The translations under genes were made by a program, and so were the position numbers. Shown here piece by piece: positions 1,594-20,887 of a DNA stretch of 64,000 bases; the first letter of the stretch is position 1; the number at the start of each line of letters is the position of its first letter. This DNA is from a virus: IMG/VR virus record IMGVR_UViG_3300037245_003639; one strand, written 5' to 3'. The notes under the pieces were generated by a model. That model had not been told where the DNA came from. It saw nothing but the letters and a program-made list of their open reading frames with translations, and did not search any database.

Positions 1594-2229
1594 ATGGCCA
1601 AAGCAACGAAATCAGAGTCACGACCCGTGCAGACAGGGATGCTTGAGTCCATTTTGCTCAAATCGGATTTTCGCTGCTTCAAAGCAGGCGATACGTTTAG
1701 CTTCAAACCTGGAGTGAATCTGCTCGTTGGCGATCAAGGCACTGGTAAATCAACAATCATCTATTTGATCCGCGATTTTGCATCAAAACGCCCCACAGAA
1801 CAAGCCATCGAAGTCGTCGGTGATGCGATTGCTATGATGTCATTCGATTTCGAGACAGAGTTGCCCCGCAACCAATCCTACCTGGAAGACAGTGGTACTC
1901 GATTATATACTCAGCTTGCCATGAAATGGTCATCGCATGGAGAATGTGTGCAAGCCTTGTTGATGGTTTTAGAAGAACCAGAGCGAATAGTCCTATTCAT
2001 GATGGACGAACCCGACATGGCTCTATCAGTTCGTTCTTGCCATCATCTTGTCAAGTCGATGAAGGAAGCCGTTAAGCGAGGCTGTCAAATAATTGCAGCA
2101 GTCCATAATCCAATAATCATTAGCAGTTTTTCGAATGTTCTGAGCATCGAACATAACCGGTGGATGTCCAGTGAGAAATTTCTGGAATCCCAGAAAAAAC
2201 CTTTGCGTAAACGTAGAAGGAAATCATAA
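1594..2229 (+). CDS. Stand-alone ABC/SMC-type P-loop ATPase (AAA_21-like)
   Basis: Walker A GDQGTGKST. SMC/ABC-signature-like SSHGECVQ. Walker B LFMMDEPDMAL. Confidence 0.55.
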   Translation: MAKATKSESRPVQTGMLESILLKSDFRCFKAGDTFSFKPGVNLLVGDQGTGKSTIIYLIRDFASKRPTEQAIEVVGDAIAMMSFDFETELPRNQSYLEDSGTRLYTQLAMKWSSHGECVQALLMVLEEPERIVLFMMDEPDMALSVRSCHHLVKSMKEAVKRGCQIIAAVHNPIIISSFSNVLSIEHNRWMSSEKFLESQKKPLRKRRRKS

Positions 2230-4010
2230 TGCGAATCGTATTAGCTCAAATCAATCCCACTCTCGGCGATCTGCGTGGCAACCTTGCTCTTATTCAGCAA
2301 GAAACCACCTACGCTGCTCAAGAGAAAGCCGATGTAGTGGTCTTCCCCGAGTTGGCAACCGTGGGCTACCCACCCCGAGACCTGCTGTACGACGAAAAGC
2401 TATGGAAGAGCCACGAAACTGTAATCTCCAAATTGCACGAGTTCGTAAAATCTTTGGCCAGAGAAATCACCGTTATCGTTGGAGGGTTGCATCAGGTTGA
2501 ATTGAGCCATGGGCGATTCGCCCGTTACAACGCAGCTTTCATCATCGACAAAAACAGGAGGATTAGAGTTGTTCACAAGCGGCTGCTACCCTGTTATGAT
2601 GTATTCGACGAGACCCGCTATTTCACGCCCGCAACAGACGGGCCTTACCCCATCAATGGAATGGAGCATGAGGTGAATGTCTTGATTTGCGAGGATATTT
2701 GGAACTTCGGATCTCAAGAGAAAGCATCATGGATGTCTCCCTACAGTTACGATGTCGATCCTGTCTCCCAACTCAAAGGCGATGGGCCAATCGTCGTTTT
2801 GAATGCATCTCCCTACTGGTGGAGCAAAATCCAGACCACCCGTGACTTGTTGCAAAGCATTGCTGACAAAACTGAGAGAGTGGTACTATGGTGCAATCAG
2901 GTCGGAGCCCATGACGATATTGTCTTTGGCGGCTACAGTATGGTCGTCAGTCCTCGTAGCATTTTCAATGTGGGCCTCCAGGAGTATCAAGGCACCATCG
3001 GAATGGCCGCGCCTTTCTCTGATGCTCGCCTGTTTGTGGACATTGGGGATAACGACGAAGTTCGCGTTATGGGTGGCCTGGATATGAATAAGCATGGCGG
3101 GCAGTATAACCCCGTCGTTAGAGTTGGTTCAGAACGCAAGGCTGTCGCCCCCGAAGATCTGGAAACATATTTCCTGTTCGCTGCTTTGCAATTGGGGCTG
3201 CGAGATTACTGCCGCCGAACTGGCTTCGAACGCATCGTCTTTGGAGCTTCCGGCGGCATCGATTCTGCTGTAGTTGGAGCCATTGCAGCTATCACCCTTG
3301 GGGGAGAAAACTGCACAGCCATTACGATGCCATCCCCCTACTCTACTTCCAGTAGCTGGGAAGATGCTTTGGCCTTGGCCGAGAACTGCAAGATGCGTTT
3401 CATGCGGCAAGATATCACGTCTGTCTATCAGGTATTGAAAGAAACTGTACTTGCCCATGGCAAGCAGAAATTTAAGAACCCCGTAACCGATGAAAATCTT
3501 CAACCACGAGCCCGAGCCATCCTGTTGATGGCGGAATCTAACGACAACGGTTCGTTACTGTTGACCACAGGCAACAAAAGTGAGCTTGCTGTCGGTTACT
3601 GCACCATCTATGGCGACATGTGCGGTGGCTATTCTTTGCTACCCGACGTTCCCAAGACCTGGGTTTTTGCATTGGCGAAGTTCATCAACAAGTATTTCGG
3701 GAATCTGATTCCTGAGAATACCATCACAAAGCCGCCATCTGCGGAATTGAAGCATGACCAGAAAGATACGGATTCGCTTCCCCCATATGACGTACTTGAC
3801 CCGGTCATCGACCAATTCATGCGTCATGTTCCCATTGAGACAATCAAAGAAAGCACCCTACTCCAGGATTCCGAGGTAGAGCGCATTGCTCACCTTATTA
3901 GGATTTCAGAACATAAGCGCTCACAAGCCCCTATCGGGCCGAAAGTTACTGAACGAGCGTTCGGCAGCGGACGGCGGATTCCCATCGCGAAGAAAGTCAC
4001 CTACGTCTGA
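2229..4010 (+). CDS. nadE: Glutamine-dependent NAD+ synthetase (N-terminal nitrilase/CN-hydrolase domain plus NAD synthetase domain)
   Basis: N-terminal CN-hydrolase (VVVFPELATVGYP, LICEDIW). C-terminal PP-loop FGASGGIDSAVV with downstream conserved TTGNKSELAVGYCTIYGD. Confidence 0.9.
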   Translation: MRIVLAQINPTLGDLRGNLALIQQETTYAAQEKADVVVFPELATVGYPPRDLLYDEKLWKSHETVISKLHEFVKSLAREITVIVGGLHQVELSHGRFARYNAAFIIDKNRRIRVVHKRLLPCYDVFDETRYFTPATDGPYPINGMEHEVNVLICEDIWNFGSQEKASWMSPYSYDVDPVSQLKGDGPIVVLNASPYWWSKIQTTRDLLQSIADKTERVVLWCNQVGAHDDIVFGGYSMVVSPRSIFNVGLQEYQGTIGMAAPFSDARLFVDIGDNDEVRVMGGLDMNKHGGQYNPVVRVGSERKAVAPEDLETYFLFAALQLGLRDYCRRTGFERIVFGASGGIDSAVVGAIAAITLGGENCTAITMPSPYSTSSSWEDALALAENCKMRFMRQDITSVYQVLKETVLAHGKQKFKNPVTDENLQPRARAILLMAESNDNGSLLLTTGNKSELAVGYCTIYGDMCGGYSLLPDVPKTWVFALAKFINKYFGNLIPENTITKPPSAELKHDQKDTDSLPPYDVLDPVIDQFMRHVPIETIKESTLLQDSEVERIAHLIRISEHKRSQAPIGPKVTERAFGSGRRIPIAKKVTYV

Positions 4011-4297
4011 GGAGTTCTCGTATGAGTCTCGATGATTCGTATTGCAGACTGGCAGATCTACAAGAGGCCCTGAAAGGTTCAGTCGAACCCCAGACGGCTA
4101 ATCTGCTGATGCAAATAGCCGAATTAGAAGATACTATTGCCTGCGAAGAACATGACGCAGAGATGGATGGAGATAAGGAATGAATCCAGCCACCGTTGGG
4201 TTTGCTCTGGTTTGTGGGCATAGTGGTGTTTGTGGCTTTATGGTCTGGTTTGGAATTCCCAAGATATGAGACAGACGGGAATGTCATTCGATAAAAA

Positions 4298-5317
4298 TTG
4301 GAGATACAAGTGCGAAAACAATCTTTGTCGCGAGGATTGACAGTATTCGCAGGAAGCAGTTCACAACAACTGGCAACCAAAATTGCCAAATATCTTGATA
4401 TCCCTTTGGGCCGGGCCGACTTGACGCCTCATCGCAACGGTGAGAGCATGGTGAAGATTGACGATAATGTGCGTGGTCGGGACGTGTTTGTCGTTCAGTC
4501 TGTTTGCCGTCAATGGCTTCCAGCTAATGGCAACCCTTATACTGGCGTCAACGACGCTCTTGTGGAACTCTTCGTCTGGATTGATGCATTAGCCCGCGCC
4601 TCAGCGTGGCGAATTACCGCAGTCATTCCTACCTTTGGGTATGCTCGCCAAGATCGCAAGGCTACAGGCCGAACTCCTATCTCCGCGAAAATGGTGGCAA
4701 CCTGCCTTGAAGAGTTGGGTTGCAATCGGGTTCTCACGATAGACTTGCATGCAGACCAGATTCAGGGGTTCTTTGGTTACAAAACCAAACTCGATTCATT
4801 AAATACCGGTGAAATCGTCTGTCAGCATTTTGCGGAACTCGGTCTTGAAAATGCTGTGGTCCTGTCCCCTGATGTCGGCAACTTAAAGAAAGCCGACAAG
4901 TATCGACAAGGAATGCCTGCCAACGTAGAAATCGCTGTCATTGATAAACGGCGGGCTGCGGATGGGACTATACAATCTGTGCAGTTGATTGGAGATGTCA
5001 AAGGCAAAAGCGTTCTCATGTTGGATGACATTATCTCGACTGCCGGGACTATGTGCAATGCAATGAAAATTGCCCTGGAGCATGGAGCGAAAGAGTTCTT
5101 CATTTGCGCAACACATGGGGAGTTCGTTGGTAACGCCATCCAAGAGTTGCAAGGATACCCCATTGAGTCCATTTGTATCACTGACGCAATACCACCCGTT
5201 CCAGAGATGGATGCCCTTCCTATCAAAGTCTTGTCAGTCGCGGAACTCTTTGGCGAAGCAATCTTGCGAATTCACAAAGATGAATCAATCACCGAACTAC
5301 TTGGAAAGTTTAACTGA
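4298..5317 (+). CDS. prs: Ribose-phosphate pyrophosphokinase (PRPP synthetase) family; alternatively an ADPR-pyrophosphate synthetase (Adps-like)
   Basis: LTVFAGSSSQQLATKIAKYLDIPLG start, DLHADQIQGFF, and PRPP-binding loop VLMLDDIISTAGTM. Confidence 0.85.
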   Translation: MEIQVRKQSLSRGLTVFAGSSSQQLATKIAKYLDIPLGRADLTPHRNGESMVKIDDNVRGRDVFVVQSVCRQWLPANGNPYTGVNDALVELFVWIDALARASAWRITAVIPTFGYARQDRKATGRTPISAKMVATCLEELGCNRVLTIDLHADQIQGFFGYKTKLDSLNTGEIVCQHFAELGLENAVVLSPDVGNLKKADKYRQGMPANVEIAVIDKRRAADGTIQSVQLIGDVKGKSVLMLDDIISTAGTMCNAMKIALEHGAKEFFICATHGEFVGNAIQELQGYPIESICITDAIPPVPEMDALPIKVLSVAELFGEAILRIHKDESITELLGKFN

Positions 5318-5386
5318 GCCTTATAAGAAAGGGATCAAGTTGTAGTGGGAAGCAAACTGCAAAGAAAGTATGATCCACACAAAGGC

Positions 5387-5415
5387 TTGACAATCCCAGA
5401 GCAACCATGTACACT
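5387..5415 (+). promoter_or_regulatory. Sigma70-like promoter TTGACAATCC-N-TACACT
   Basis: TTGACA at 5387-5392, 17-nt spacer, TACACT at 5410-5415. RBS GAGGAG then ATG at 5457. Confidence 0.5.
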
Positions 5416-5456
5416 GTGGTTTGATACGAAACCTGGAATTGATTGAGGAGTAAACC

Positions 5457-6146
5457 ATGACAAACCTGAAACGCAGAAGTGTATGGGCCGTTGCGCTCGC
5501 GATGTTCGCATTGTTTGCTATCCCGGATGCGGTAGCGCAACGTCGAGGCGGCGGATCTCGTTCCCGTTCAACCCCCCGCCGCTCGACCCCGTCGAAGCCC
5601 AGGACGAAGGCAGCTCCCAAGAAGACCGCGACAAAGAAGACCACCACGGCCACGAAGGAAAAGGCCGGCTATGGCAAGAAAAGCACCAAAGCTTCATCGT
5701 CCAAGGGCTCCAAGGCCGACAAGGCCCTCTATGAGAAGGCCAAGCGAAACGGCACCAGCTACAAGACCCGGGGCGAAGCCACGTCGGCTTTCAAAACGAA
5801 GATGGCGAACCAAAAGCGAGCTGACGGCAATCCCATGTATAGCAGCAAGTATGTGGCTCAGCCCGGCACTCGTCCTGGCCATATCCCGCAGACCTATGGC
5901 GGCAATACCATCATCTACAACCAGCAATACGGCGGCTACGGCCATATGGGTGTTGGAGGGTGGATGATGTATAACGCCATGGCCGACGCCACTATGATGA
6001 GCATGATGATGCGGAACCAAGGCTACCACTATGGCGCTGCGCCCCGTTACGGCCCAGGGGTGGGGCTAATCACCTTGACAGTCGTCTGCGGGATTATCGC
6101 TGTCGTTGCAGTTGGCGTGGTAATCACCAGGAAAAGCACAGCATGA
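5457..6146 (+). CDS. Secreted, membrane-anchored Lys/Thr-rich protein (signal peptide plus C-terminal TM)
   Basis: Signal peptide MTNLKRRSVWAVALAMFALFAIPDAVAQ. Lys/Thr/Ser-rich low-complexity region, Met/Gly-rich segment, C-terminal TM VGLITLTVVCGIIAVVAVGVVI. High-GC codon usage. Confidence 0.5.
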   Translation: MTNLKRRSVWAVALAMFALFAIPDAVAQRRGGGSRSRSTPRRSTPSKPRTKAAPKKTATKKTTTATKEKAGYGKKSTKASSSKGSKADKALYEKAKRNGTSYKTRGEATSAFKTKMANQKRADGNPMYSSKYVAQPGTRPGHIPQTYGGNTIIYNQQYGGYGHMGVGGWMMYNAMADATMMSMMMRNQGYHYGAAPRYGPGVGLITLTVVCGIIAVVAVGVVITRKSTA

Positions 6147-6922
6147 ACCTAAAAGACCCTGACTTCTGGCTCCAACTAAAGCCTCAGAGTGCCATCACGC
6201 TGAAAGACGAGAAGTCTTTGCTCAAAGACATGAGCGGCGTGGAAACCCTGGTTAAACGCATTATCAAGCTTCCTGAATGTGAGGGTCTCTGTACATGGTT
6301 GTTGCTGGAGCTTGAGGAAGCTACGGACAAAGCCACGCAATGGCTGATGGTCAAAATCGTGGGAGACGAAATCGACTTCCGCATCTACCATCTCCCCGCC
6401 AAGTTCGAACGTGGCAACCGCGATGATCTCGTTTTCGGTGGTGAAAACGAAGGCCACTGGGTTTTCCAAGAGCCCGAAGTCGAAGACGATGGTGAAGAGA
6501 TGACCCCGCAGGAAATCTTCGGGGATGACGAAGACGAGCAAACCTTCGAGGGTTCGGATGAAGAGCAGGGCATTATTCTTAACGATCTGGTCTATGCCGA
6601 CGAATTCGACTGGGATGGAGAGACTTATCGCAAGAAGGCCCAAGGCGACTTTGCCTGTGGTGACTTTGGTGTCTTTACTATAAAGGACGGCGACAGCGTA
6701 GGCATCGGCTCCCCTCCAATCGTGGAAACCCCGAAACCATCGGGTATCGACTATAACCAACTGGCTACGCTGGCCGAATACGTTGCGGACAGCGACAAGG
6801 CCAAAGAACCCGAAGCGGTGGTGTTTGAAATCGGAGATGCGGACGATGACAACGGCGGGCTCGTTAGCCTGATGATTGGTCATTCGCTCGCTGTAACTGA
6901 CCTGGATATACTCGCAAAGTAA
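6143..6922 (+). CDS. Hypothetical acidic protein
   Basis: ATGA overlap with the upstream stop. Asp/Glu-rich. The antisense 309-aa ORF is rejected. Confidence 0.5.
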   Translation: MNLKDPDFWLQLKPQSAITLKDEKSLLKDMSGVETLVKRIIKLPECEGLCTWLLLELEEATDKATQWLMVKIVGDEIDFRIYHLPAKFERGNRDDLVFGGENEGHWVFQEPEVEDDGEEMTPQEIFGDDEDEQTFEGSDEEQGIILNDLVYADEFDWDGETYRKKAQGDFACGDFGVFTIKDGDSVGIGSPPIVETPKPSGIDYNQLATLAEYVADSDKAKEPEAVVFEIGDADDDNGGLVSLMIGHSLAVTDLDILAK

Positions 6923-6935
6923 GGGAGAACAACGA

Positions 6936-7397
6936 ATGGACGCAACAGCGGAAGCGACAAAAATCGGCACGCTTGATGAATTGCAAGCGGCCTTGTCAGA
7001 ACTCGGGTATGAATGCAACCGAGTGGACATGGATGGAGATGGCACCCCAGAGCCGTTGCTGACTGCGGTCATCAACGTGGATGACAAGTCGTACTCCATC
7101 GTCATCTCGCAAGAAGAGCATCATTTCCTGGTGGACTGCGAGTTCTGCCAACTCAAGGATTTGTCCGACGACAACGCTGAGAAGATGACGGCTCAATTGT
7201 TGGCCGTTTTGGCTCTGAACCATGACATCGCCCCATTCGCGTTTGCCGTCGTGGACAGCGGACTCGACGGCATCGATCCAACAGATCCGATTGTCCTCGT
7301 TCACCGCCTGCCGATTGGCGATCTGAGCGTGGAGGAAGTAAATCAGGCATTCGCATCGCTACGGCAAGGCATCAACGCTGCTGTGGTGTCGATTTAG
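6936..7397 (+). CDS. Hypothetical protein
   Basis: RBS GGGAGAA 8 nt upstream. Acidic. Confidence 0.45.
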   Translation: MDATAEATKIGTLDELQAALSELGYECNRVDMDGDGTPEPLLTAVINVDDKSYSIVISQEEHHFLVDCEFCQLKDLSDDNAEKMTAQLLAVLALNHDIAPFAFAVVDSGLDGIDPTDPIVLVHRLPIGDLSVEEVNQAFASLRQGINAAVVSI

Positions 7398-7423
7398 GCC
7401 AAAAGCCAGAGAGGAGATAAATC

Positions 7424-8098
7424 ATGAGCATTTGGAATAACGTCAAAAACATGTTCCGCGAGAAAGCGGAAAAGATAGAAGCCGCAACGGCTGACCATGT
7501 GCGAGACGGCAAATTCGCCATCAAAGACGCCGAGGCGGAAGAGATCAGATTCCGTGCGAGCGTCCGCGATGTAGTGGCGGATCTCAAACAGATGGAAACC
7601 CGACTCACCACGATACAGGCCGACCGCAAGAAGTACGACGGTCTGGCCAAGAAGTTCGCAGCAGCGGTGGAAGATGGTGACAAAGACCAGATGACAAATC
7701 TGGAAACTGCCGCCGGTAAAGTCGATGCGCTCGACGCTGAGATCACCGCTACAAAGAAATCGCTCGATGGGCTGCGGAACAGTCGGCAGCAGTTGCAGGT
7801 TGAACTCGATAAGGTCCGCAATAAAATTGCCAGGGCGAAGCAGACCTACTCGGTCAATGCGGCTCGCATCAAAGCGGCCAAGATCAAAGATACGCTCAAC
7901 CAATCCAAAGCGAGAGTGGCAGCGGGCGTCTCGGGCTTAGGTGCTCTGGACGATATGTCCGCTGCGGCAGACCGCATGGAAGCCGAGGCCGAAGCAACCG
8001 AAGAACTTGCCGGTCCGGCGGCTGATATTGAGAGCTTGGAGGAAGCCGCTGACGCCATTGGCGGAAGCAGTGCGGCTGACAGATACCTCAAGGGATAG
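7424..8098 (+). CDS. pspA: PspA/IM30 (phage-shock protein A / Vipp1) family protein
   Basis: Start MSIWNNVKNMFREKAEKIEAATADHVRDG..IKDAEAEEIR, then a long heptad coiled coil with the same architecture as PspA ([25 protein letters not shown]...). RBS GAGGAG. Confidence 0.6.
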   Translation: MSIWNNVKNMFREKAEKIEAATADHVRDGKFAIKDAEAEEIRFRASVRDVVADLKQMETRLTTIQADRKKYDGLAKKFAAAVEDGDKDQMTNLETAAGKVDALDAEITATKKSLDGLRNSRQQLQVELDKVRNKIARAKQTYSVNAARIKAAKIKDTLNQSKARVAAGVSGLGALDDMSAAADRMEAEAEATEELAGPAADIESLEEAADAIGGSSAADRYLKG

Positions 8099-8123
8099 CC
8101 CTCCTTTTTCTGCACCATGCCCC

Positions 8124-8160
8124 GAGCGGCGAGCCCGTCAAACGGCTCGTCGCTTTTTTA
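8124..8160 (+). terminator. Rho-independent terminator
   Basis: Imperfect GC-rich stem AGCGGCGAGCCCG/CGGCUCGUCGC followed by UUUUUUA. Immediately followed by a promoter. Confidence 0.45.
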
Positions 8161-8189
8161 TTGACAATCTCGTGTCTTTCTGATAAAGT
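8161..8189 (+). promoter_or_regulatory. Sigma70-like promoter TTGACAATCT-N-TAAAGT
   Basis: TTGACA at 8161-8166, 17-nt spacer, TAAAGT at 8184-8189. GGAGG RBS and ATG at 8206. Confidence 0.5.
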
Positions 8190-8205
8190 GACCACGGAGG
8201 TTGTT

Positions 8206-9297
8206 ATGAGATACTGGCTTTTGACATTGCTACTGGTCCCAGGTGCTTTCGCCCAAGAGCCACCTAATCCCCCGATTGAACAGGGCTCCGAGAACTACAT
8301 CCGCGTGGACTGTGCCAACTTCCCGCAGATAGTCAACAAGGATTCCGCCAACTACACCGGGTTTCTTATTGACGTTTGGGAAGCTGTGGCTTTACGGCAG
8401 GACTGGCAATTCATCTACCACGAAGCCCCCAGAACAACTGAACCGGGAGCCGATCACTACGACGCTCCCTTCAAGAGACTGGAAACAGGAGAAGCGGATA
8501 TCCTGCTTGCAGCTTGCACAAAAACCGCGGCGAGAGAAGAAAGGATTGACTTCTCTGATCAATACTATCGCTCTGGTTTACGCATCGTCACCAACAAACA
8601 GGAGGCCCCATGGTATCTTTTCCTGACGGGCTTCCTCTCACCGAGTATTATCAAAGCATTCGTTATTCTGACCTGTCTGCTTACCGTGGGCGGGTTCTTC
8701 ATGTGGATATTCGATCGCCGACATGCCGACAGCGAGGTCAAGACTTTTGAACTCGGATGCCAATTGGCCTTCGAGACTGGCTCCACCATTGGGCATGGTT
8801 TCCTGCACCCTAAAAGTCGCGGAGCCAGATGGACGGGCTATCTCATATTCCTTACGGGTTGCATCTGTTTCAGCAACCTTATCTCCGAGATGACTGCGGA
8901 GAAGACCCTGGACCGCATGGATGGGGCCATTACAGGCCCGTCAGACCTCGCTGGCAAGACTGTAGCGACCGTGGCAGGGACAACTGCCTCCGACACTTTG
9001 GATAAACTGGGAGCAATCGTCCCCCAATGTGCAAAACTTGGCGATGCATTGCTCAAACTACTCATCGGTGAGGCCGATGCCGTAGTCTACGACTGGCCAG
9101 CCCTGGCTTACTACCTGAATGAAACGTCCGCAGGAGAACGTTGTGAAGCGGTCGGGCCATTGTTTGACATTCAATACTATGGGGTAGCTTTCCCCGAGGG
9201 TTCTCCTCTCCGCGAACAGTTTAACGTTGGACTCAACCTTCTACGAGAATCCGGTGAATACGAACAAATTTACAAGAAATGGTTTCCCAAAAGCTAG
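8206..9297 (+). CDS. GluR0-like ligand-gated ion channel: periplasmic binding-protein lobes S1/S2 interrupted by M1-pore loop-M2
   Basis: Signal peptide MRYWLLTLLLVPGAFAQ. PBP type-3 lobe 1 (RIDFSDQYYRSGLRIV). TM1 IIKAFVILTCLLTVGGFFMWIF. Re-entrant segment ELGCQLAFETGSTIGHGF, resembling a K-channel pore helix plus TxGYG filter. TM2 YLIFLTGCICFSNLISEMTA. PBP lobe 2 (GKTVATVAGTTASDTL...AVVYDWPALAYY). Confidence 0.6.
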   Translation: MRYWLLTLLLVPGAFAQEPPNPPIEQGSENYIRVDCANFPQIVNKDSANYTGFLIDVWEAVALRQDWQFIYHEAPRTTEPGADHYDAPFKRLETGEADILLAACTKTAAREERIDFSDQYYRSGLRIVTNKQEAPWYLFLTGFLSPSIIKAFVILTCLLTVGGFFMWIFDRRHADSEVKTFELGCQLAFETGSTIGHGFLHPKSRGARWTGYLIFLTGCICFSNLISEMTAEKTLDRMDGAITGPSDLAGKTVATVAGTTASDTLDKLGAIVPQCAKLGDALLKLLIGEADAVVYDWPALAYYLNETSAGERCEAVGPLFDIQYYGVAFPEGSPLREQFNVGLNLLRESGEYEQIYKKWFPKS

Positions 9298-9315
9298 CAA
9301 ATTCAACGAATCTGT

Positions 9316-9344: not shown

Positions 9345-9388
9345 ACCGACGAGCAACACGATCAAAGTCCTATGAACATGGAGATGAG

Positions 9389-11325: not shown

Positions 11326-11354
11326 TTGACAATCTCCGCTCCATCCGCTATTCT
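11326..11354 (+). promoter_or_regulatory. Sigma70-like promoter TTGACAATCT-N-TATTCT
   Basis: TTGACA at 11326-11331, 17-nt spacer, TATTCT at 11349-11354. Confidence 0.5.
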
Positions 11355-11380: not shown

Positions 11381-12577
11381 ATGATCATAAGGTCTTTACT
11401 CGATACAGATCTTTATAAACTGACAATGCAACAGGCCATCCTGTTCGGACGGTTTGCTGGCGTTCATTTCCAGTCAGTGCCCGTCCGTTACAAGTTTATC
11501 AACCGCAATCGCACGCCTTTCCCCGCTGGCTTTGACAGGATGCTACAAGCAGAGATTGAAAGCCTTGCTCGTCTCCAATTGGTCGAAAGGGAAAGGGAGT
11601 TCCTGACCAGTCGGCGTTTTCTCAAACCCGGCTATATCGACTTCTTTAGCGGTTATCGCTACAACCCTGAGGAAGTCACAGTTACGCAAGACTCAGATGG
11701 ACAACTGCATGTCACGGTTGAAGGCCCGTGGTACCGAACAGTCATGTGGGAAGTTCCACTGCTTGCTATAATCAGCGAACTATACTTCCAGTCTCAAAAC
11801 ATAACCGTTTCACTGCCATCCGTTCGTGATTCTGCGGCAGCAAAAGCAATGCGATTGGTACAGGCGGGTTGTTTCTTTGCAGACTTTGGGACTCGACGAC
11901 GATATTCGAGGGAAGTCCATGAACACGTTGTAGAAGGTCTCAAGTTCTGTCCTAATCCGCACAGCCATTTCTCTTATCGTCGAGGAAATCTTACCGGAGC
12001 CAGCAACGTTTGGCTGGCTATGCGTAACAATATCACTCCCATCGGCACTCACGCCCACGAGTGGTTTCAGGCAATTGCGGCGTTATTTGGCTACCGCCAA
12101 GCTAACCGTTTTGCTCTGGAAGCGTGGGCCGAAGAATACGGCGGTGATCTAGGAATCGCCTTGAGCGATACTTTCACCACTGATGTGTTCTTCCACGACT
12201 TTCGAGCAGATATGGCCAAGCTCTGGGATGGAGTCCGACATGACAGCGGAGATCCCCTCGTTTTTGCCCAGAAGACCATAGATCATTACCAGAGTTTGCA
12301 CATTGATCCGCTTTCGAAGACAATCGTCTTTAGTGACGGCCTCAACGTGGACAAAGCCATTGAATTGAATGAGTGGTGCAAGGGTAAAATAAAATGTGCA
12401 TTTGGCATTGGCACCCACTTTAGTAATGACGTAGGCGCCACACCGCTGAACATCGTTATGAAGATGACCCGTTGCAATGGAATGCCGGCTGTTAAGCTCT
12501 CTGACGTAGACGGGAAGAATACTGGCGATGCCGACGCCATCGAGTCGTGCAAATTTCAACTAGGACTGAACGCATGA
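11381..12577 (+). CDS. pncB: Nicotinate phosphoribosyltransferase family (NAPRTase); alternatively a Namat-like enzyme
   Basis: Hallmark N-terminus IRSLLDTDLYKLTMQQA. GGAGG RBS 8 nt upstream of ATG 11381 (the track ORF starts at 11366, in frame). 400-aa length typical of PncB. Confidence 0.85.
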   Translation: MIIRSLLDTDLYKLTMQQAILFGRFAGVHFQSVPVRYKFINRNRTPFPAGFDRMLQAEIESLARLQLVEREREFLTSRRFLKPGYIDFFSGYRYNPEEVTVTQDSDGQLHVTVEGPWYRTVMWEVPLLAIISELYFQSQNITVSLPSVRDSAAAKAMRLVQAGCFFADFGTRRRYSREVHEHVVEGLKFCPNPHSHFSYRRGNLTGASNVWLAMRNNITPIGTHAHEWFQAIAALFGYRQANRFALEAWAEEYGGDLGIALSDTFTTDVFFHDFRADMAKLWDGVRHDSGDPLVFAQKTIDHYQSLHIDPLSKTIVFSDGLNVDKAIELNEWCKGKIKCAFGIGTHFSNDVGATPLNIVMKMTRCNGMPAVKLSDVDGKNTGDADAIESCKFQLGLNA

Positions 12578-12855: not shown

Positions 12856-13259
12856 AATATCGCTTAGGTCTATCTTGTCTATTGCTCGGTTTCGTAGAGC
12901 TTGCAGCCATCTTCGGCTGGGTCTATATGGTCCGCAACTATGACTGGACCAACCCGGTTCCGCAGCCCCTTACGGAAACCAGCACCTTTGTCTTCATGGG
13001 CTCGATTTTGACCATCGTCTCCCCATTTGCTTTCATCATCATTGGCTCCATATTCCTGGAGGCCGGGAATTACAAACTGCTCAATCGAAAACGAGAAGGG
13101 CTCTGCTGGAAGTGTGGGAAAAATCTCAAAAAGCATGGACAGTGGGTTCCAGATAAAGTTATCTGTCAATGCGGTCATGAACATAATATCAAAGTCATCA
13201 CTTTATACTCGGAGATTAGGGAACGGCAACGGCAACTAAGAGAGCTTGACGATGGCTAA
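12852..13259 (+). CDS. Hypothetical membrane protein with C-terminal CxxC..CxC zinc ribbon
   Basis: ATGA overlap. Two TM helices. CWKCGKN...CQCGHEH. Confidence 0.4.
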   Translation: MKYRLGLSCLLLGFVELAAIFGWVYMVRNYDWTNPVPQPLTETSTFVFMGSILTIVSPFAFIIIGSIFLEAGNYKLLNRKREGLCWKCGKNLKKHGQWVPDKVICQCGHEHNIKVITLYSEIRERQRQLRELDDG

Positions 13260-13935: not shown

Positions 13936-13992
13936 AAGCAGGACTACACGTCGTTGTAGCTGAATACTACCGTAGCAGGAGGCTATGGTGGC

Positions 13993-14835: not shown

Positions 14836-14847
14836 GTATAATGGAAC

Positions 14848-15051
14848 ATGAAAAATATCGTCAAAGCAATTACAATCAACAAAGAAATCGTCCTTATTAA
14901 CGAAGAACAAGTTACCACCGTCATGCAGGGGGAGGTCACCTTGCCTGAAAACAAACGAACTGCCAAAGTAAAAATGAGCAACGGCGATGAGTTTATTCTC
15001 GCATCTCCAGATTGGGATATGTGGGAAAACGATTTGTTTCTGCCGCAATAA
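14848..15051 (+). CDS. Hypothetical small protein
   Basis: 67-aa ORF in the operon context. Confidence 0.3.
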   Translation: MKNIVKAITINKEIVLINEEQVTTVMQGEVTLPENKRTAKVKMSNGDEFILASPDWDMWENDLFLPQ

Positions 15052-15056
15052 ACGAG

Positions 15057-15085
15057 TTGACACGAAGCCAATTATACGGTAGTCT
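15057..15085 (+). promoter_or_regulatory. Sigma70-like promoter TTGACA-N-TAGTCT
   Basis: TTGACA at 15057-15062, 17-nt spacer, TAGTCT at 15080-15085. AAGGAG RBS then ATG at 15118. Confidence 0.45.
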
Positions 15086-15117
15086 TCTTCAAGTGTCCCA
15101 TCTTAAAGGAGATCGAT

Positions 15118-15690
15118 ATGGACGCATTGAATATTGGGATATTGGTGGTTGGCATTTGTGCAGGGATTGGCGCTCTGATACTCAAACTCAAGTCACGTAA
15201 ACCTGACCAAACGCTACCCATCAGCCCCCAAGCCACCGCTCCTCCGCAGGCGGCCACCAGAACAAGAAAAGATGTTCCCATCCGTCACCGACGCCGAGCT
15301 AATTCAACAGGTAAGATTGCGCCCGCCGGTTATTACTGGAACGAGACGGATGAACTCTTCGACTTGGATGGCTGGTTGATTGAAGGAATAATACTTCTTG
15401 AAATGCTCGACAGTATGAGCGTGGTTCCACTCGACGGAATCGCAGCTTCCAATGAACAATATGCTCAGGAAATCGATGCTACTCCTGATATTCCCGCAGC
15501 AGAGGTTGAACATGTAACAGAGAGTATCGCAAGCCCTCCTCCCGCGCCTGTGCATCACGAACCTGTTACTCCTGAGCCCGAGCGAAGTAGCTGGGGCGGA
15601 GGCGGAAGCGGAGGCGGAAGCGGAAGCGGAAGCGGAAGCTACGATTCAGGTGGAAGCGACTCTGGCGATTGCGGTGGAGGAGATGATTAA
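15118..15690 (+). CDS. Membrane protein with Gly/Ser-rich C-terminal tail
   Basis: N-terminal TM LNIGILVVGICAGIGALIL. C-terminal GGGSGGGSGSGSGSYDSGGSDSGDCGGGDD encoded by a (GGAAGC/GGAGGC)n repeat. Confidence 0.4.
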   Translation: MDALNIGILVVGICAGIGALILKLKSRKPDQTLPISPQATAPPQAATRTRKDVPIRHRRRANSTGKIAPAGYYWNETDELFDLDGWLIEGIILLEMLDSMSVVPLDGIAASNEQYAQEIDATPDIPAAEVEHVTESIASPPPAPVHHEPVTPEPERSSWGGGGSGGGSGSGSGSYDSGGSDSGDCGGGDD

Positions 15691-15861
15691 ATGCCGTGGT
15701 GGGGCTGGGTTCTAATAGTAGCAGGCGTCATATTCATATGGCGCCTCATAGCCCGCCTTCGAGAAGGGGCATCCTTTTCAGAGGCCATAATAGACGCCCT
15801 TTGTGATTGGAGTGAAGACCTGGGAGGCGGAGGCGACAGCTACGATGACTTCATGGATTAG
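15691..15861 (+). CDS. Small membrane protein (56 aa; below the ORF-track cutoff)
   Basis: ATG overlaps the upstream stop (TAAATG). MPWWGWVLIVAGVIFIWRLIARL is a single TM; ends DSYDDFMD. Confidence 0.3.
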   Translation: MPWWGWVLIVAGVIFIWRLIARLREGASFSEAIIDALCDWSEDLGGGGDSYDDFMD

Positions 15862-16048
15862 TCGCTCTTAGCTGGCTGATCCTGGGGAGGCTTCACTGGC
15901 TGTTTGGACAATTTCACCAGTTCGGCTATAAACTGATGAACTTCAGCGAAAGGCCGCTGAGCAAGGTAATCGACAATCGATTTCAATAGTTTGTCTTCTA
16001 TAATGTAGTTCATATTTCACCTATGACTTATTATACGCGTGAACCCGT

Positions 16049-18937
<2,889 letters not shown>

Positions 18938-18980
18938 ATAGATTTATACCGTGTGGAAGGTGGTCTTTCCTTGAAACAGC

Positions 18981-19009
18981 TTGACAATCTGCTCCCATTC
19001 CTTTAGGAT
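18981..19009 (+). promoter_or_regulatory. Sigma70-like promoter TTGACAATCT-N-TAGGAT
   Basis: TTGACA at 18981-18986, 17-nt spacer, TAGGAT at 19004-19009. The track ORF 18981..19586 starts inside this promoter and is probably not the real start. Confidence 0.5.
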
Positions 19010-19029
19010 GGGTTTCAAGGAGACGTACA

Positions 19030-19212
19030 GTGCTTATAATACCGGCAACCGTCGTGCTATTTCTCCTGGGACAAAAATTTGTCTGGGGAGACGAAAAAGA
19101 TACAATAGAAACCTACGTAAGAACAGGAGTAATCGGTTTTGTGATCGGTCTTCTCCTGTCTGTTGTTTTGCATACAATGGGCTGCGTAAGAGCAGTCCAA
19201 TGGTGCTTTTAG
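19030..19212 (+). CDS. Small two-TM membrane protein (GTG start)
   Basis: AGGAG at 19018-19022, 7 nt before GTG 19030. Hydrophobic helices IIPATVVLFLLGQKFVW and GVIGFVIGLLLSVVL. Confidence 0.35.
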   Translation: MLIIPATVVLFLLGQKFVWGDEKDTIETYVRTGVIGFVIGLLLSVVLHTMGCVRAVQWCF

Positions 19213-19223
19213 GAGTAAAAACG

Positions 19224-19586
19224 ATGAAATTCAAACTTTTTGTTACCGTGGTTCTTCTCGGATTTGGCGCTGTCGGAGGCATCTTCGGTAAGGGCTACAT
19301 TGAGAAGAAAAATGCCGGTGAAGATGTTACTCTCGCTAGCGAAGTTACCGACGTGGCAGCCAACACAATAGAATTCGTGGATGGCAAACTTATCACCAAT
19401 CCTGTCACCGGCAAGCAATGGATGGTCATCTCCCAGGAAAAACTGAATCGAATGCTGTCAGAAGCATGGGAAAAGGGACAGAGGGATACGCCCCGAATGT
19501 TCGCCGATGGGTCTGTCCCGGATAGCCAGCCTGTTCCCGTAGTCCAGCCCGTGAAGCCTGAAACCCACGGTGACGTAACCCCGTGA
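19224..19586 (+). CDS. Secreted/anchored hypothetical protein
   Basis: AGGAG RBS and ATG 19224. Signal/TM MKFKLFVTVVLLGFGAVGGIFG. Confidence 0.45.
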   Translation: MKFKLFVTVVLLGFGAVGGIFGKGYIEKKNAGEDVTLASEVTDVAANTIEFVDGKLITNPVTGKQWMVISQEKLNRMLSEAWEKGQRDTPRMFADGSVPDSQPVPVVQPVKPETHGDVTP

Positions 19587-19617
19587 GTCTTCAAGAGCTA
19601 CAGGAACAGACGGGAGA

Positions 19618-20004
19618 ATGGGTGGCGGGTTGGTCTCGACAGGAGATCCGTTGACAGACTTGGCCCGTGAGATTGAGCAGTTCATGTTTAACAATCGGCT
19701 GACGCAGGCCGAAGTGGCGAAACACGCAAAAGTTTCCCAGGCGCTCATCTCCAAAATAATCCACAGGAAACACGGCGAGCTTCGCCTGTCTACGGAGCAG
19801 AAGCTTAGGAATTCCCTTAAATCTGCGCCTCTTCAATCTGCGCCTCTTCTGAGTCGTCAAGTCCGCGCGGGTGAATTGAATGTTGGCCGCGATTTCATAG
19901 TTGATGGGACGGTTATCATCACGCCAGCGGGCGACAAATTCATCATTCTGTCAATGGAAAAATACGAACAAATGATGGAGGCGCCCCAAGATGGAAGTCC
20001 ATAA
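19618..20004 (+). CDS. HTH (XRE-like) domain protein
   Basis: RLTQAEVAKHAKVSQALISKIIHRK is a helix-turn-helix. Confidence 0.45.
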   Translation: MGGGLVSTGDPLTDLAREIEQFMFNNRLTQAEVAKHAKVSQALISKIIHRKHGELRLSTEQKLRNSLKSAPLQSAPLLSRQVRAGELNVGRDFIVDGTVIITPAGDKFIILSMEKYEQMMEAPQDGSP

Positions 20005-20887
20005 GTTCCAACACGAAACCGGTCTTCTGTTTCGGGAGCATTTTGGCAATACGCCGCTAACGGCCCGCATCAAAGATATCATCAGCGAAGCCCAAGAACT
20101 TCAAAGGTTCACCGATCTACGAAACCTGAGCGAAGAGGCAGGTGATCTCGGTGCCTCGCTTCTGGCGCTTTGCCATGAATGCGGGTGGGACTTTGAGGAA
20201 CTGGTCCAAGCAACGCATGCAAAGATTAAACGAAGAGCAGCGCAGTACAAATCTCTCGGACGCAAAGTCAAGGTAGCATTGCTTGGGGGAGCGTTTGATC
20301 CGCCGACTTTAGGACATATCGCTGTGGCTCGTTTCGTGCTGAATGTCAGCAAGACCTTTGATGAAGTTTGGTTGGTGCCTTGCTTTCGGCACATGTACAA
20401 CAAGCGGCTTTCGCCAACCGTAGCTCGACTGGAGATGTGCGAGTTAGTGGCCGCGCAGGATGGTCGAGTCCGAGTCTTCGATTTTGAGATTACTCACCAA
20501 CTGCGCGGCGAAACCTACAATTTCGTGCAACGACTGCTCGACGATCCGATGGCGCAGAATGAGTATGATTTCTCGCTAATCATCGGCATGGACAACGCTA
20601 ACACCTTTGATAATTGGGTTAATTTCGAAGAACTAGAGAGGATGATTCGGTTCGTTGTGGTCCCAAGGGCAGGAGAAAAACGAAACGAAAGCGTTGATTG
20701 GTACCTGAAACCGCCCCATATTTATCTTCCCCATGATCAATCTCTGCCAGAGACTTCTTCGACGGAGGTCAGAGAACTAGTAGGGGCTTTCCCCAAAGAA
20801 CTCGCCCGCGAGTTGCTTCTAAAGCTGGTAGATCCGGCTGTTCTTGCTTACATTGAAAAAGAGGGTTTGTATAATAGCACCGAATGA
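19991..20887 (+). CDS. nadD: Bifunctional MazG-like NTP pyrophosphohydrolase / nicotinate(nicotinamide)-mononucleotide adenylyltransferase
   Basis: N-terminal MazG motif (SEEAGDLGASLLAL, EExGD). C-terminal cytidylyltransferase fold: VALLGGAFDPPTLGHI ((H/T)xGH) and SSTEVRE (ISSTxIR-like). Confidence 0.8.
   Translation: MEVHKFQHETGLLFREHFGNTPLTARIKDIISEAQELQRFTDLRNLSEEAGDLGASLLALCHECGWDFEELVQATHAKIKRRAAQYKSLGRKVKVALLGGAFDPPTLGHIAVARFVLNVSKTFDEVWLVPCFRHMYNKRLSPTVARLEMCELVAAQDGRVRVFDFEITHQLRGETYNFVQRLLDDPMAQNEYDFSLIIGMDNANTFDNWVNFEELERMIRFVVVPRAGEKRNESVDWYLKPPHIYLPHDQSLPETSSTEVRELVGAFPKELARELLLKLVDPAVLAYIEKEGLYNSTE

What the first reader, a model, noticed from the sequence alone, without database searches (positions are those of the whole stretch)
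2229..20887. A virus-encoded complete NAD+ Preiss-Handler pathway plus PRPP synthetase (NadE, Prs, PncB, MazG-NadD): candidate NAD-reconstitution module
Seen in the sequence: four genes in one + strand arm whose products connect into one pathway.
- PncB-family enzyme (TDLYKLTM start) at 11381-12577
- PRPP-synthetase-family enzyme (DLHADQIQGFF, PRPP loop) at 4298-5317
- NaMN/NMN adenylyltransferase ((H/T)xGH, SSTxxR) fused to MazG at 19991-20887
- Glutamine-dependent NAD synthetase (CN-hydrolase plus PP-loop SGGxDS) at 2229-4010

Established knowledge: PncB + NadD + NadE is the Preiss-Handler route, and Prs supplies PRPP. Recently described phage NAD-reconstitution systems use a Prs homolog (Adps) plus a PncB/Nampt homolog (Namat), or alternatively Nampt + Nmnat, to rebuild NAD+ after NADase-type defences (Thoeris, DSR, SIR2) deplete it.

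Inference: this element carries a different, four-enzyme, deamidated-route version. Alternatively the Prs and PncB homologs are really Adps/Namat, with NadD/NadE as extras. NadD + NadE only make sense if NaMN or NaAD intermediates are used, which argues for an unreported full-pathway anti-defence strategy.
Basis: partly seen in the sequence, partly recalled or inferred. Interest (0 to 1): 0.8.

Follow-up and report, generated by a model that had tools for sequence, protein, structure and literature searches.

The report
Huge-phage NAD+ synthesis gene island
An uncultivated huge phage carries ordinary-looking enzymes for making NAD+ from nicotinate plus its own PRPP supply; this kind of phage NAD+ pathway has been reported before, and a role against bacterial defences is plausible but untested.

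Summary
All four genes are real and canonical. They are glutamine-dependent NadE (2229-4010), class I PRPP synthetase (4310-5317), ATP-coupled PncB (11381-12577) and a MazG-NadD fusion (19991-20887).

The Prs and PncB homologs are not Adps/Namat (NARP1). NadE, Prs and PncB pass curated NCBIfam cut-offs. Prs matches a NARP1 Adps only weakly, and PncB does not match Namat at all.

NadE, Prs and PncB sit in the same order in five related contigs (41-483 kb), so Prs belongs to the module. PncB next to NadE is common in IMG/VR viral contigs.

The claim that this is unreported fails:
- Li et al. 2024 describe "NAD-jumbo phages" with complete Preiss-Handler clusters.
- Iyer et al. 2021 had already linked jumbo-phage NAD+ synthesis to NADase defences.
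- The cultured phage Phosso carries an annotated NadE-PncB-MutT-NMNAT cluster.

Two details I did not find described: the conserved Prs linkage, and the MazG-NadD fusion, which appears to be virus-restricted.

No nicotinamidase, Nudix or Macro gene was found among the ~80 ORFs scanned, so recycling of NADase products is not self-contained in the part seen. Anti-defence function remains untested.

The parts
2229..4010 (+). Glutamine-dependent NAD+ synthetase (NadE): an N-terminal CN-hydrolase glutaminase domain plus a C-terminal PP-loop synthetase domain.
   Evidence: NF010588 scores 524 bits (cut-off 479); Pfam CN_hydrolase plus NAD_synthase. PDB 5kha and 4f4h are the best matches, with the triad and PP-loop aligned. 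Homologs at 51-58% identity sit in the same position in L292-L296.
4310..5317 (+). Class I ribose-phosphate pyrophosphokinase (PRPP synthetase, Prs). The ORF opens at TTG 4298; the likely start is GTG 4310.
   Evidence: NF002320 scores 335 bits (cut-off 297). E. coli, Burkholderia and B. subtilis PRPS give 223-242 bits over the full length. The DLHADQIQGFF, DKRR, DDIISTAGT and C-terminal SITELL motifs are present, whereas a NARP1 Adps lacks QIQGFF, KRR and the C-terminal segment. Identity to Adps is 28% over 210 aa, 73.6 bits. GGAG precedes GTG 4310, and the identical database protein is 335 aa.
11326..11354 (+). Sigma-70-like promoter match (TTGACA-N17-TATTCT) directly upstream of PncB. Similar perfect -35 boxes lie at 5387, 8161, 9316 and 18981.
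   Evidence: Consensus scan: 34 sites found against 20.4 +/- 4.3 in shuffles. This is a pattern match only.
11381..12577 (+). Nicotinate phosphoribosyltransferase (PncB, the ATP-coupled type).
   Evidence: TIGR01514 scores 431 bits (cut-off 269.6), with NAPRTase_N plus NAPRTase domains. All PDB matches are NAPRTases, the best being 2im5 at 316 bits. There is no significant similarity to Namat (E 0.076). The His in GT-x-AHEW is invariant in 14 viral PncB sequences. GGAGG lies 8 nt before ATG 11381.
19991..20266 (+). MazG-like four-helix nucleotide pyrophosphohydrolase domain (residues 1 to about 92 of the fusion).
   Evidence: Homologs carry PF03819. A profile of the domain hits E. coli MazG 3cra at E 5e-8 and 2yxh at 1.5e-4. 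E33, E36, E49 and D52 are invariant and E48 is conserved in at least 90% of the sequences compared. The AlphaFold2 model shows four helices at residues 3-88.
20267..20887 (+). NadD-type nicotinate-mononucleotide adenylyltransferase domain (residues about 93-298 of the fusion).
   Evidence: CTP_transf_like domain; TIGR00482 scores 102.6 bits against a cut-off of 112.45. The GGAFDPPTLGH and SSTEVR motifs are present. The AlphaFold2 model has pLDDT 90.4, and the top Foldseek hits are bacterial NaMN adenylyltransferases with target-normalised TM-scores of about 0.8-0.86.
20884..21726 (+). Calcineurin-like metallophosphoesterase whose start overlaps the NadD stop. It may be co-translated with NadD, its function is unknown, and it is not a conserved partner.
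   Evidence: Pfam Metallophos at E 6e-10 and TIGR03729 at 48 bits, below cut-off. It is present only in the two contigs whose proteins are all 100% identical to the window's (L001, L002) and is absent from the other 42 NadD loci.
854..1555 (+). DUF115/MptE-like protein with a sialyltransferase-like fold. It is a conserved left-hand neighbour of the island and is probably not part of the pathway.
   Evidence: Homologs reach 85% identity and lie on contigs of up to 580 kb. A homolog lies upstream of NadE in all of L292-L296 (adjacent in L292, L294 and L296; separated by one to several genes in L293 and L295). It hits phrog_4603 (alpha-2,3-sialyltransferase) at E 2e-12. Foldseek gives weak hits to Maf glycosyltransferase and sialyltransferases.

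Best explanation
This is a conserved NAD+ supply island of an uncultivated huge phage.

Proposed pathway:
1. Prs turns ribose-5-phosphate and ATP into PRPP.
2. PncB joins PRPP to nicotinate, driven by ATP, to give NaMN.
3. The NadD domain of the MazG-NadD fusion adenylylates NaMN to NaAD.
4. NadE amidates NaAD to NAD+, using ammonia channelled from glutamine.

The infected cell can then make NAD+ from nicotinate, ribose-5-phosphate, ATP and glutamine without relying on host enzyme levels or host regulation. PRPP is not drained from nucleotide synthesis.

The benefit is a sustained NAD+ pool during a long, resource-heavy infection. Resistance to NAD+-depleting defences is a likely side of the same benefit, not a demonstrated dedicated function.

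What is shown: family membership, intact catalytic motifs, conserved gene order, and wide viral distribution.

What is inferred: the activities themselves, the preference of NadD for NaMN, the time of expression, and the selective benefit. The role of the MazG domain is unknown. By analogy with Nudix-NMNAT fusions it may hydrolyse a nucleotide linked to NAD+ turnover.
For: - NadE, Prs and PncB exceed curated NCBIfam cut-offs. NadD falls just under its cut-off but has the NadD fold and motifs.
- Catalytic motifs are intact.
- The order MptE-like, NadE, Prs, then PncB 2-7 kb downstream is kept in five contigs (41-483 kb). Protein identity there is only 49-66% for the three enzymes. Order kept at that divergence argues for selection on the block and ties Prs to the NAD genes. 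One relative adds an NAD kinase and a NadD.
- PncB occurs at 543 or more places in IMG/VR. Of the 80 best loci, 55 have NadE within 10 kb, 12 have NadD and 8 have both.
- The MazG-NadD fusion has at least 656 homologs and 42 IMG/VR loci, many on 200-500 kb contigs.
- The published 735-kb phage LR756501 holds all four genes.
- Literature: complete Preiss-Handler clusters in jumbo phages (PMC11662467); phage NAD+ synthesis from PRPP overcomes NADase defences in NARP2 (bioRxiv 10.1101/2024.02.11.579819).
Against: - No enzyme activity was measured.
- NadD's preference for NaMN over NMN cannot be read from sequence.
- The four genes are spread over 18.6 kb in at least three transcription units, with unrelated genes and a minus-strand tail-fibre gene between them.
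- Prs also feeds nucleotide synthesis. The 80 best Prs loci in IMG/VR (about 40% identity) have no NAD genes within 10 kb.
- No PncA, Nudix or Macro gene is found among the ~80 ORFs scanned, so the products of NADases cannot enter the pathway using the genes seen.
- Only 64 kb of a genome of about 403 kb was seen.
Confidence: 0.65

Rival explanations
1. Dedicated counter-defence. The island exists mainly to rebuild NAD+ after Thoeris, DSR, SIR2-HerA or similar systems destroy it, which would make it a fourth NAD+-restoring route beside NARP1-3.
For: - NARP2 and NARP3 show that ordinary salvage enzymes carried by phages do overcome NADase defences.
- Iyer et al. proposed this role for jumbo-phage NAD+ synthesis.
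- In other viral PncB-NadE loci the neighbours include Macro and Nudix proteins (L080 and L082). Phosso has a MutT-like gene beside its adenylyltransferase. Macro proteins are known NARP1 accessories.
- PRPP-based routes are unaffected when defences yield ADPR-1''-phosphate.
Against: - NADases release nicotinamide, not nicotinate, and no PncA was found in the window.
- No ADP-ribose-processing gene was found in the window.
- The Prs keeps the C-terminal segment of regulated housekeeping PRPS, which the NARP1 Adps lacks; the Adps paper describes that enzyme as stripped of PRPS regulatory elements.
- No experiment exists for any phage Preiss-Handler set in the library searched.
Confidence: 0.3
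2. Loose collection of auxiliary metabolic genes. Prs serves nucleotide synthesis for a very large genome, the NAD genes are separate acquisitions, and the shared neighbourhood reflects inherited gene order rather than joint function.
For: - Separate promoters and unrelated genes lie between the four.
- The window also encodes ThyX, a dCMP deaminase and a dNMP kinase.
- Prs in other viral contigs is not linked to NAD genes.
- The small ORFs between NadE and Prs are not conserved.
Against: - NadE lies one or two small ORFs upstream of Prs in all six genomes compared, despite 51-66% protein identity.
- PncB followed directly by Prs occurs independently in L094 and L097.
- PRPP is the co-substrate of PncB.
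Confidence: 0.2
3. A disguised NARP1: the Prs homolog is Adps and the PncB homolog is Namat, with NadD and NadE as extras.
For: Both pairs belong to the same broad superfamilies, and NARP1 enzymes are routinely annotated as Prs and Nampt.
Against: - Prs scores above the canonical PRPS cut-off and has QIQGFF, KRR and the C-terminal segment, all of which Adps lacks.
- Identity to Serratia phage Kashira Adps is only 28% over 210 aa, against full-length matches of 223-242 bits to bacterial PRPS.
- PncB is a TIGR01514 equivalog with no detectable similarity to Namat.
- The two genes are 6 kb apart and not an operon.
Confidence: 0.02
4. Not viral: a stretch of a bacterial chromosome or megaplasmid with housekeeping NAD genes.
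For: - No capsid or terminase gene lies in the window.
- Some relatives are binned into bacterial or archaeal MAGs.
Against: - Tail-fibre and clamp-loader PHROG hits, and no family hit for most of the ORFs scanned.
- Relatives are IMG/VR viral contigs.
- The MAG labels for the fusion are mutually inconsistent: CPR, Planctomycetota, Promethearchaeota, Methanothrix and Clostridia.
- No isolate genome carries the fusion.
Confidence: 0.04

Closest known systems
NAD-jumbo phages with Preiss-Handler gene clusters (Li et al. 2024, Microbiome, PMC11662467; e.g. Kuafu_71 with pncB-nadD-nadE)
   Same: A phage with a very large genome encodes PncB, NadD and NadE, all the steps from nicotinate to NAD+, physically grouped. 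They were found by metagenomics in many habitats.
   Different: That paper does not mention PRPP synthetase or a MazG fusion. Here Prs is a conserved member of the island and NadD is fused to MazG. The paper states that the 735-kb phage carries only nadD, yet tblastn here finds PncB, a short NadE and Prs in it as well.
NARP2 (Vibrio phage KVP40 Nampt NadV plus Nmnat-Nudix NatV)
   Same: It builds NAD+ from PRPP and a pyridine base with ordinary salvage chemistry, and it pairs an adenylyltransferase with a nucleotide pyrophosphohydrolase domain.
   Different: NARP2 uses nicotinamide directly in two steps, with no amidation. Here the base is nicotinate, three steps are needed, PRPP is supplied by the phage, and the hydrolase domain is MazG rather than Nudix. 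Counter-defence is shown for NARP2 and not here.
NARP1 (Adps plus Namat)
   Same: Both involve a Prs-superfamily and a phosphoribosyltransferase-superfamily protein carried by a phage and linked to NAD+.
   Different: NARP1 is a two-gene operon that pyrophosphorylates ADP-ribose and joins nicotinamide to it. The window's proteins are canonical PRPS and PncB, 6 kb apart.
NARP3 (PnuC-like transporter plus NadR-like enzyme, PMC13464706)
   Same: A phage-borne salvage route that restores NAD+.
   Different: It starts from imported nicotinamide riboside. No PnuC or NadR was found in the window.
Cultured jumbo phages: Sinorhizobium phage Phosso and Agrobacterium phage Atu_ph07
   Same: Phosso has an annotated cluster of NadE, PncB, a MutT-like hydrolase and a nicotinamide-nucleotide adenylyltransferase. 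Atu_ph07 has an annotated PncB and a glutamine-dependent NAD synthetase.
   Different: Identity to the window is only 29-32%. Phosso's NadE is ammonia-dependent, its hydrolase is a separate Nudix gene rather than a fused MazG, and no Prs lies in the cluster.
Bifunctional adenylyltransferase-hydrolase enzymes of NAD metabolism (NadM-Nudix, NatV; Nudix or P-loop kinase fusions listed for jumbo phages by Iyer et al. 2021)
   Same: A HIGH-motif adenylyltransferase of NAD synthesis is joined to a nucleotide-hydrolysing or nucleotide-phosphorylating domain.
   Different: The partner here is an all-alpha MazG domain at the N-terminus of a NadD-type enzyme. I found no description of this architecture. 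Its substrate is unknown.

Membership tests
Preiss-Handler pathway: PncB (nicotinate phosphoribosyltransferase, ATP-coupled type) | Score above the curated equivalog cut-off, and NAPRTase_N plus NAPRTase domains. | tested here: met
   TIGR01514 scores 431 against 269.6 and NF003704 scores 474.5 against 379. All six PDB matches are NAPRTases.
Preiss-Handler pathway: PncB (nicotinate phosphoribosyltransferase, ATP-coupled type) | The histidine that is autophosphorylated by ATP, in the GT-x-AHEW motif. The assignment of this residue is from memory of Salmonella PncB His219. | tested here: met
   PIGTHAHEWFQ is present. A230 and H231 are invariant in 14 viral PncB sequences.
Preiss-Handler pathway: NadD (NaMN adenylyltransferase) | The (H/T)xGH and SxTxxR nucleotidyltransferase motifs and the NadD fold. 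| tested here: met
   GGAFDPPTLGH and SSTEVR are present. Foldseek top hits are B. anthracis, B. subtilis, S. aureus and M. abscessus NadD, with target-normalised TM-scores of about 0.8-0.86.
Preiss-Handler pathway: NadD (NaMN adenylyltransferase) | Score above the curated equivalog cut-off. | tested here: not met
   TIGR00482 scores 102.6 bits against a cut-off of 112.45. This is a near miss for a diverged viral clade.
Preiss-Handler pathway: NadD (NaMN adenylyltransferase) | Preference for NaMN over NMN. | not testable with these tools
   It can only be inferred from the co-presence of PncB and NadE.
Preiss-Handler pathway: NadE (glutamine-dependent NAD+ synthetase) | Score above cut-off, a Glu-Lys-Cys glutaminase triad, and an SGGxDS PP-loop. 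| tested here: met
   NF010588 scores 524 against 479. FPEL, HKRLLP, LICEDIW and SGGIDS align with 5kha.
Class I PRPP synthetase (Prs) | Score above the curated subfamily cut-off, plus the DLHAxQIQGFF motif, the KRR flexible loop, the DDxxxTxGT ribose-5-phosphate loop, and the C-terminal segment. | tested here: met
   NF002320 scores 335 against 297. The motifs are seen. Bacterial and human PRPS match over the full length.
NARP1 (Adps plus Namat) | A two-gene operon: a Prs-like protein that lacks PRPS regulatory elements, next to a Nampt-family protein of about 500-600 aa. | tested here: not met
   Compared with the NARP1 pair of Serratia phage Kashira. Prs is 28% identical over 210 aa (73.6 bits), and PncB shows no significant match. 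The genes are 6 kb apart.
NARP2 (Nampt plus Nmnat) | A Nampt-family nicotinamide phosphoribosyltransferase. | tested here: not met
   No Nampt was found among the ~80 window ORFs scanned, and the phosphoribosyltransferase present is PncB.
NARP3 (PnuC plus NadR-like) | A PnuC transporter and a NadR-like kinase/adenylyltransferase. | tested here: not met
   Neither was found among the ~80 window ORFs scanned.
NAD-jumbo phage (Li et al. 2024) | At least one complete NAD+ synthesis pathway encoded by the phage. | tested here: met
   PncB, NadD and NadE are all present.
NAD-jumbo phage (Li et al. 2024) | A phage genome above 200 kb. | tested here: inconclusive
   The window is 64 kb. The cluster record of the identical NadD protein lists a longest contig of 403,172 bp, but that contig could not be fetched.
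MazG superfamily (N-terminal domain of the fusion) | An all-alpha four-helix domain with the ExxE...EExxD metal-binding motif. | tested here: met
   The profile hits E. coli MazG at E 5e-8, and all six PDB hits are MazG-type proteins. E33, E36, E49 and D52 are invariant. Four helices are predicted. PF03819 is found in homologs.

The most novel reading that the evidence does not exclude
The NadE-Prs-PncB-(MazG-)NadD island of this huge-phage clade is a fourth, self-sufficient NAD+-restoring counter-defence route that uses the deamidated pathway and its own PRPP supply. In this reading the MazG-NadD fusion, which appears to be virus-restricted, is a new bifunctional enzyme. Its MazG domain would hydrolyse a nucleotide tied to NAD+ destruction or immune signalling, for example ADP-ribose to feed ribose-5-phosphate to Prs, or a signalling nucleotide. 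That would be the counterpart of the Nudix domain in NatV and NadM.
Probability: 0.2. Interest if true: 0.65.

Novelty: new member of a known kind. Interest (0 to 1): 0.35.

Why it matters
If active, the island makes a huge phage largely independent of the host for NAD+ and PRPP. That bears on how such phages sustain long infections and on how far NAD+-depleting immunity can work against them.

The concept is already published. What this window adds is smaller:
- Evidence that a canonical PRPP synthetase is a conserved member of the module in one clade.
- A large MazG-NadD fusion family, apparently virus-restricted, whose hydrolase domain has no assigned role.

Both points are cheap to test biochemically. 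They would extend the list of phage NAD+ pathways (NARP1-3) to the nicotinate route.

Tried and rejected
1. NARP1 reading. Rejected after comparison with a bona fide Adps/Namat operon and with curated models.

2. ORF 854-1555 (weak MptE-like 'pyrophosphokinase' hit) as a fifth pathway enzyme. It is a conserved neighbour. Its PHROG and fold matches are to sialyltransferase and Maf glycosyltransferases, so it is not counted as part of the pathway.

3. The metallophosphoesterase overlapping the NadD stop as a conserved partner. It is absent from all 42 other NadD loci.

4. The small ORF between NadE and Prs (4022-4183) as a conserved component. The ORFs in that position are unrelated across genomes.

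5. A general Prs-NAD linkage in viruses. The 80 best Prs loci in IMG/VR have no NAD genes nearby. The linkage is specific to this clade and a few other loci.

6. Search for PncA, Nudix, Macro, Nampt, NadR or PnuC in the window. None was found among about 80 ORFs scanned. Smaller ORFs, and ORFs with no family hit, remain open.

7. Attempts to reach the full 403-kb contig. Only 1-16.5 kb copies were retrievable.

8. Nucleotide similarity to GenBank phages. There was none, and the capsid-less window gave no closer taxonomic placement.

Full report
**1. Observation**

The four ORFs exist on the + strand at the stated places.

- NadE (2229-4010) has CN_hydrolase and NAD_synthase domains. It scores 524 bits on NF010588, above the cut-off of 479. 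It aligns with the glutamine-dependent enzymes 5kha and 4f4h, with the glutaminase triad motifs and the SGGIDS PP-loop in place.
- Prs scores 335 bits on NF002320, above the cut-off of 297. It matches E. coli, Burkholderia, Legionella, B. subtilis and human PRPS over its whole length. Its real start is probably GTG 4310, which follows a GGAG. The identical database protein is 335 aa.
- PncB scores 431 bits on the TIGR01514 equivalog, above the cut-off of 269.6. It matches only NAPRTases in the PDB.
- The last ORF (19991-20887) is a fusion, described in section 3.

The window looks viral. It has a collagen-like tail fibre, a clamp loader, a topoisomerase, sigma factors and nucleotide-metabolism genes, and most of the ORFs scanned have no family hit. 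It has no nucleotide-level relative in GenBank phages.

**2. Not NARP1**

The Prs/Nampt-like pair of Serratia phage Kashira was fetched as a reference NARP1 operon. It is a Vequintavirinae phage with the two genes adjacent.

- The window's Prs shares 28% identity over 210 residues with that Adps (73.6 bits). Canonical PRPS give 223-242 bits.
- PncB has no significant similarity to Namat.
- In alignment, the window's Prs keeps DLHADQIQGFF, the KRR loop, DDIISTAGT and the C-terminal SITELL segment. Adps lacks QIQGFF, KRR and the C-terminal part. This agrees with the published description of Adps as a PRPS scaffold stripped of regulatory elements (PMC13586617).

**3. The MazG-NadD fusion**

The full protein has at least 656 homologs. 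Most carry precomputed PF03819 (MazG) plus PF01467, and one is 100% identical and recorded on a contig of up to 403,172 bp.

Evidence for the two domains:
- In 28 aligned sequences the N-terminal domain has invariant E33, E36, E49 and D52. The NadD part keeps GxFxPxxxGH and SSTxxR.
- A profile of the N-terminal 92 residues hits E. coli MazG at E 5e-8. All six PDB hits are MazG-type proteins.
- The AlphaFold2 model (pLDDT 90.4) shows a four-helix N-domain and a Rossmann domain.
- The best structural matches of the Rossmann domain are bacterial NaMN adenylyltransferases, with target-normalised TM-scores of about 0.8-0.86.

Distribution:
- The fusion occurs at 42 IMG/VR loci, many on 200-500 kb contigs, and in the 735-kb phage LR756501.
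- In one genome for each of 185,579 species, the full-length fusion appears only on about ten MAG contigs. Their labels are mutually inconsistent: CPR, Planctomycetota, Promethearchaeota, Methanothrix and Clostridia.
- All other hits in that scan are NadD alone, and no isolate genome has the fusion.
- It therefore looks virus-restricted.
- A full-text search found no paper that combines MazG, nicotinate-nucleotide adenylyltransferase and phage. Iyer et al. list only Nudix and P-loop kinase fusions.

**4. Context and conservation**

Close Prs homologs (50-89% identity) are numerous. The first named cellular hits are Phycisphaerales chromosomes at 49-50% identity.

Five contexts were read, from contigs of 41, 78, 106, 389 and 483 kb.

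- Every one has the order MptE-like gene, glutamine-dependent NadE, one or two unrelated small ORFs, Prs, and then PncB 2-7 kb downstream. The MptE-like gene is adjacent to NadE in three of them, further upstream in L293, and on the opposite strand in L295.
- Two keep the same intervening glutamate-receptor-like channel, and one of these also keeps the PspA and VWA genes.
- One adds an NAD kinase upstream and a NadD after PncB.

Order kept at 49-66% protein identity ties Prs to the NAD genes in this clade.

More widely, PncB occurs at 543 or more places in IMG/VR. Of the 80 best loci:
- 55 have NadE within 10 kb.
- 12 have NadD.
- 8 have both.
- 2 have Prs directly after PncB.

By contrast, the 80 best viral Prs loci outside this clade have no NAD genes nearby.

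Within the window the genes are not one operon.
- Terminator-like hairpins lie at 798-837 and 8124-8155.
- Perfect TTGACA -35 boxes lie at 5387, 8161, 9316, 11326 and 18981.
- This suggests several host-type promoters, one of them directly before PncB. These are pattern matches only.

**5. What is already known**

- Li et al. 2024 named 'NAD-jumbo phages'. They report complete salvage or Preiss-Handler pathways in 174 of 668 gut jumbo phages and 181 of 863 others, with pncB-nadD-nadE clusters. They do not mention Prs or MazG.
- Iyer et al. 2021 discussed jumbo-phage NAD+ synthesis as an answer to TIR, SIR2 and other NADase effectors.
- Experimentally shown counter-defence pathways are NARP1 and NARP2, NARP1 with a Macro phosphatase, and NARP3. 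None uses nicotinate.
- The cultured phage Phosso has an annotated NadE-PncB-MutT-NMNAT cluster. Atu_ph07 has PncB and a glutamine-dependent NadE.
- LR756501 contains PncB, a short NadE, Prs and the fusion.

**6. Mechanism and limits**

The best-supported reading is a phage-run line from ribose-5-phosphate and nicotinate to NAD+. It keeps NAD+ and PRPP available during infection.

Counter-defence is plausible by analogy with NARP2. However, NADases yield nicotinamide and ADP-ribose, and no nicotinamidase, Nudix or Macro gene was found among the ~80 window ORFs scanned. Entry of those products would need the host's PncA or genes outside the 64 kb seen.

Some other viral PncB-NadE loci do carry Macro and Nudix neighbours. 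This keeps the counter-defence idea alive for the wider family.

The MazG domain has intact metal-binding residues but no assigned substrate. The parallel with Nudix-NMNAT fusions is an analogy, not a test.

**7. Verdict**

The pathway assignment is right and the NARP1 alternative is excluded. The claim of an unreported strategy is not supported. This is a new member of a known kind, with two details I did not find described: conserved Prs linkage and the MazG-NadD fusion.

Noticed in passing
window 8161-9297 (+): The 'solute-binding' ORF is built like a prokaryotic ionotropic glutamate receptor (GluR0-like). Two SBP_bac_3/Lig_chan lobes are split by a hydrophobic segment (about aa 160-185), a pore-like STIGHG stretch and a second hydrophobic segment. 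Its closest NCBIfam model is the glutamine-binding protein GlnH. Homologs with Ion_trans domains sit at the same place between Prs and PncB in L292 and L295.
   Followed up: partly
window 854-1555 (+): A DUF115/MptE-like protein that is very strongly conserved (up to 85% identity) on contigs of up to 580 kb. It hits the PHROG for alpha-2,3-sialyltransferase and has a weak Maf/sialyltransferase-like fold. It lies upstream of NadE in all five relatives, and about 2.3 kb from PncB in 9 of 80 IMG/VR loci.
   Followed up: yes
window 42643-47648 (-): A complete PrkA (AAA_PrkA plus PrkA), DUF444 (YeaH-like) and SpoVR gene trio, a bacterial stress/sporulation-associated module, in a phage context. All three also hit PHROG families.
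   Followed up: no
window 61627-62873 (-): A ThiF/E1-like adenylyltransferase next to an ORF with a faint desampylase (JAB-like) hit. This may be a ubiquitin-like conjugation or deconjugation pair.
   Followed up: no
window 20884-21726 (+): A calcineurin-like metallophosphoesterase whose ATG overlaps the MazG-NadD stop codon. It is not found next to NadD in any other locus.
   Followed up: partly
window 22021-24711: A GT10 fucosyltransferase-like gene (+) followed by a convergent radical SAM and SPASM-domain pair (-).
   Followed up: no
window 24775-25242 and 26812-27738 (+): A polynucleotide-kinase-like P-loop kinase (AAA_33) and a histidine-phosphatase-family protein flank a sigma-70 family gene (25214-26095). 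A second sigma-like gene lies at 40827-41492 (-).
   Followed up: no
window 15358-15446 (+): ARAGORN calls an 89-nt tRNA-Ile with anticodon AAT inside the ORF 15118-15690. That ORF may not be a real gene, or the tRNA call may be spurious.
   Followed up: no
window 1594-2229 (+): A short ABC/SMC-type ATPase-like ORF (211 aa) whose stop overlaps the NadE start. It is absent from the same position in all five relatives.
   Followed up: partly
L080 7591-11589 and L082 6930-13982: In another group of IMG/VR contigs the PncB-NadE pair is flanked by a sigma factor, a Macro-domain protein, an HNH protein and the MptE-like gene on one side. On the other side L082 has a Nudix protein downstream of NadE, and L080 has a PTH2 gene between PncB and NadE. 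This links ADP-ribose-processing domains to the nicotinate route.
   Followed up: partly
L294 5401-6210: One relative (389-kb contig, GCA_004196315.1) has an NAD kinase just upstream of the same island. Its NadD after PncB has an N-terminal extension that does not look MazG-like.
   Followed up: partly
L130 8956-9864: On a MAG contig labelled Planctomycetota, a divergent Prs-like gene (26% identity to the window's Prs) sits immediately upstream of a MazG-NadD fusion. It was not determined whether it is PRPS- or Adps-like.
   Followed up: no
LR756501.1 (L048): The published 735-kb huge phage has PncB (430275-431429), a short NadE (428818-429429), Prs (449161-450078) and the MazG-NadD fusion (30905-31726). 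Li et al. state that it carries only nadD.
   Followed up: partly
There are hints of a Planctomycetota host. The nearest named cellular Prs homologs are Phycisphaerales chromosomes (49-50% identity), and several fusion-bearing MAG contigs are binned to Planctomycetota or Pirellulales.
   Followed up: no
window about 60679-61077 (-): A second MazG-superfamily gene: a PRA-PH (PF01503) hit on the corresponding gene of the identical contig L289.
   Followed up: no
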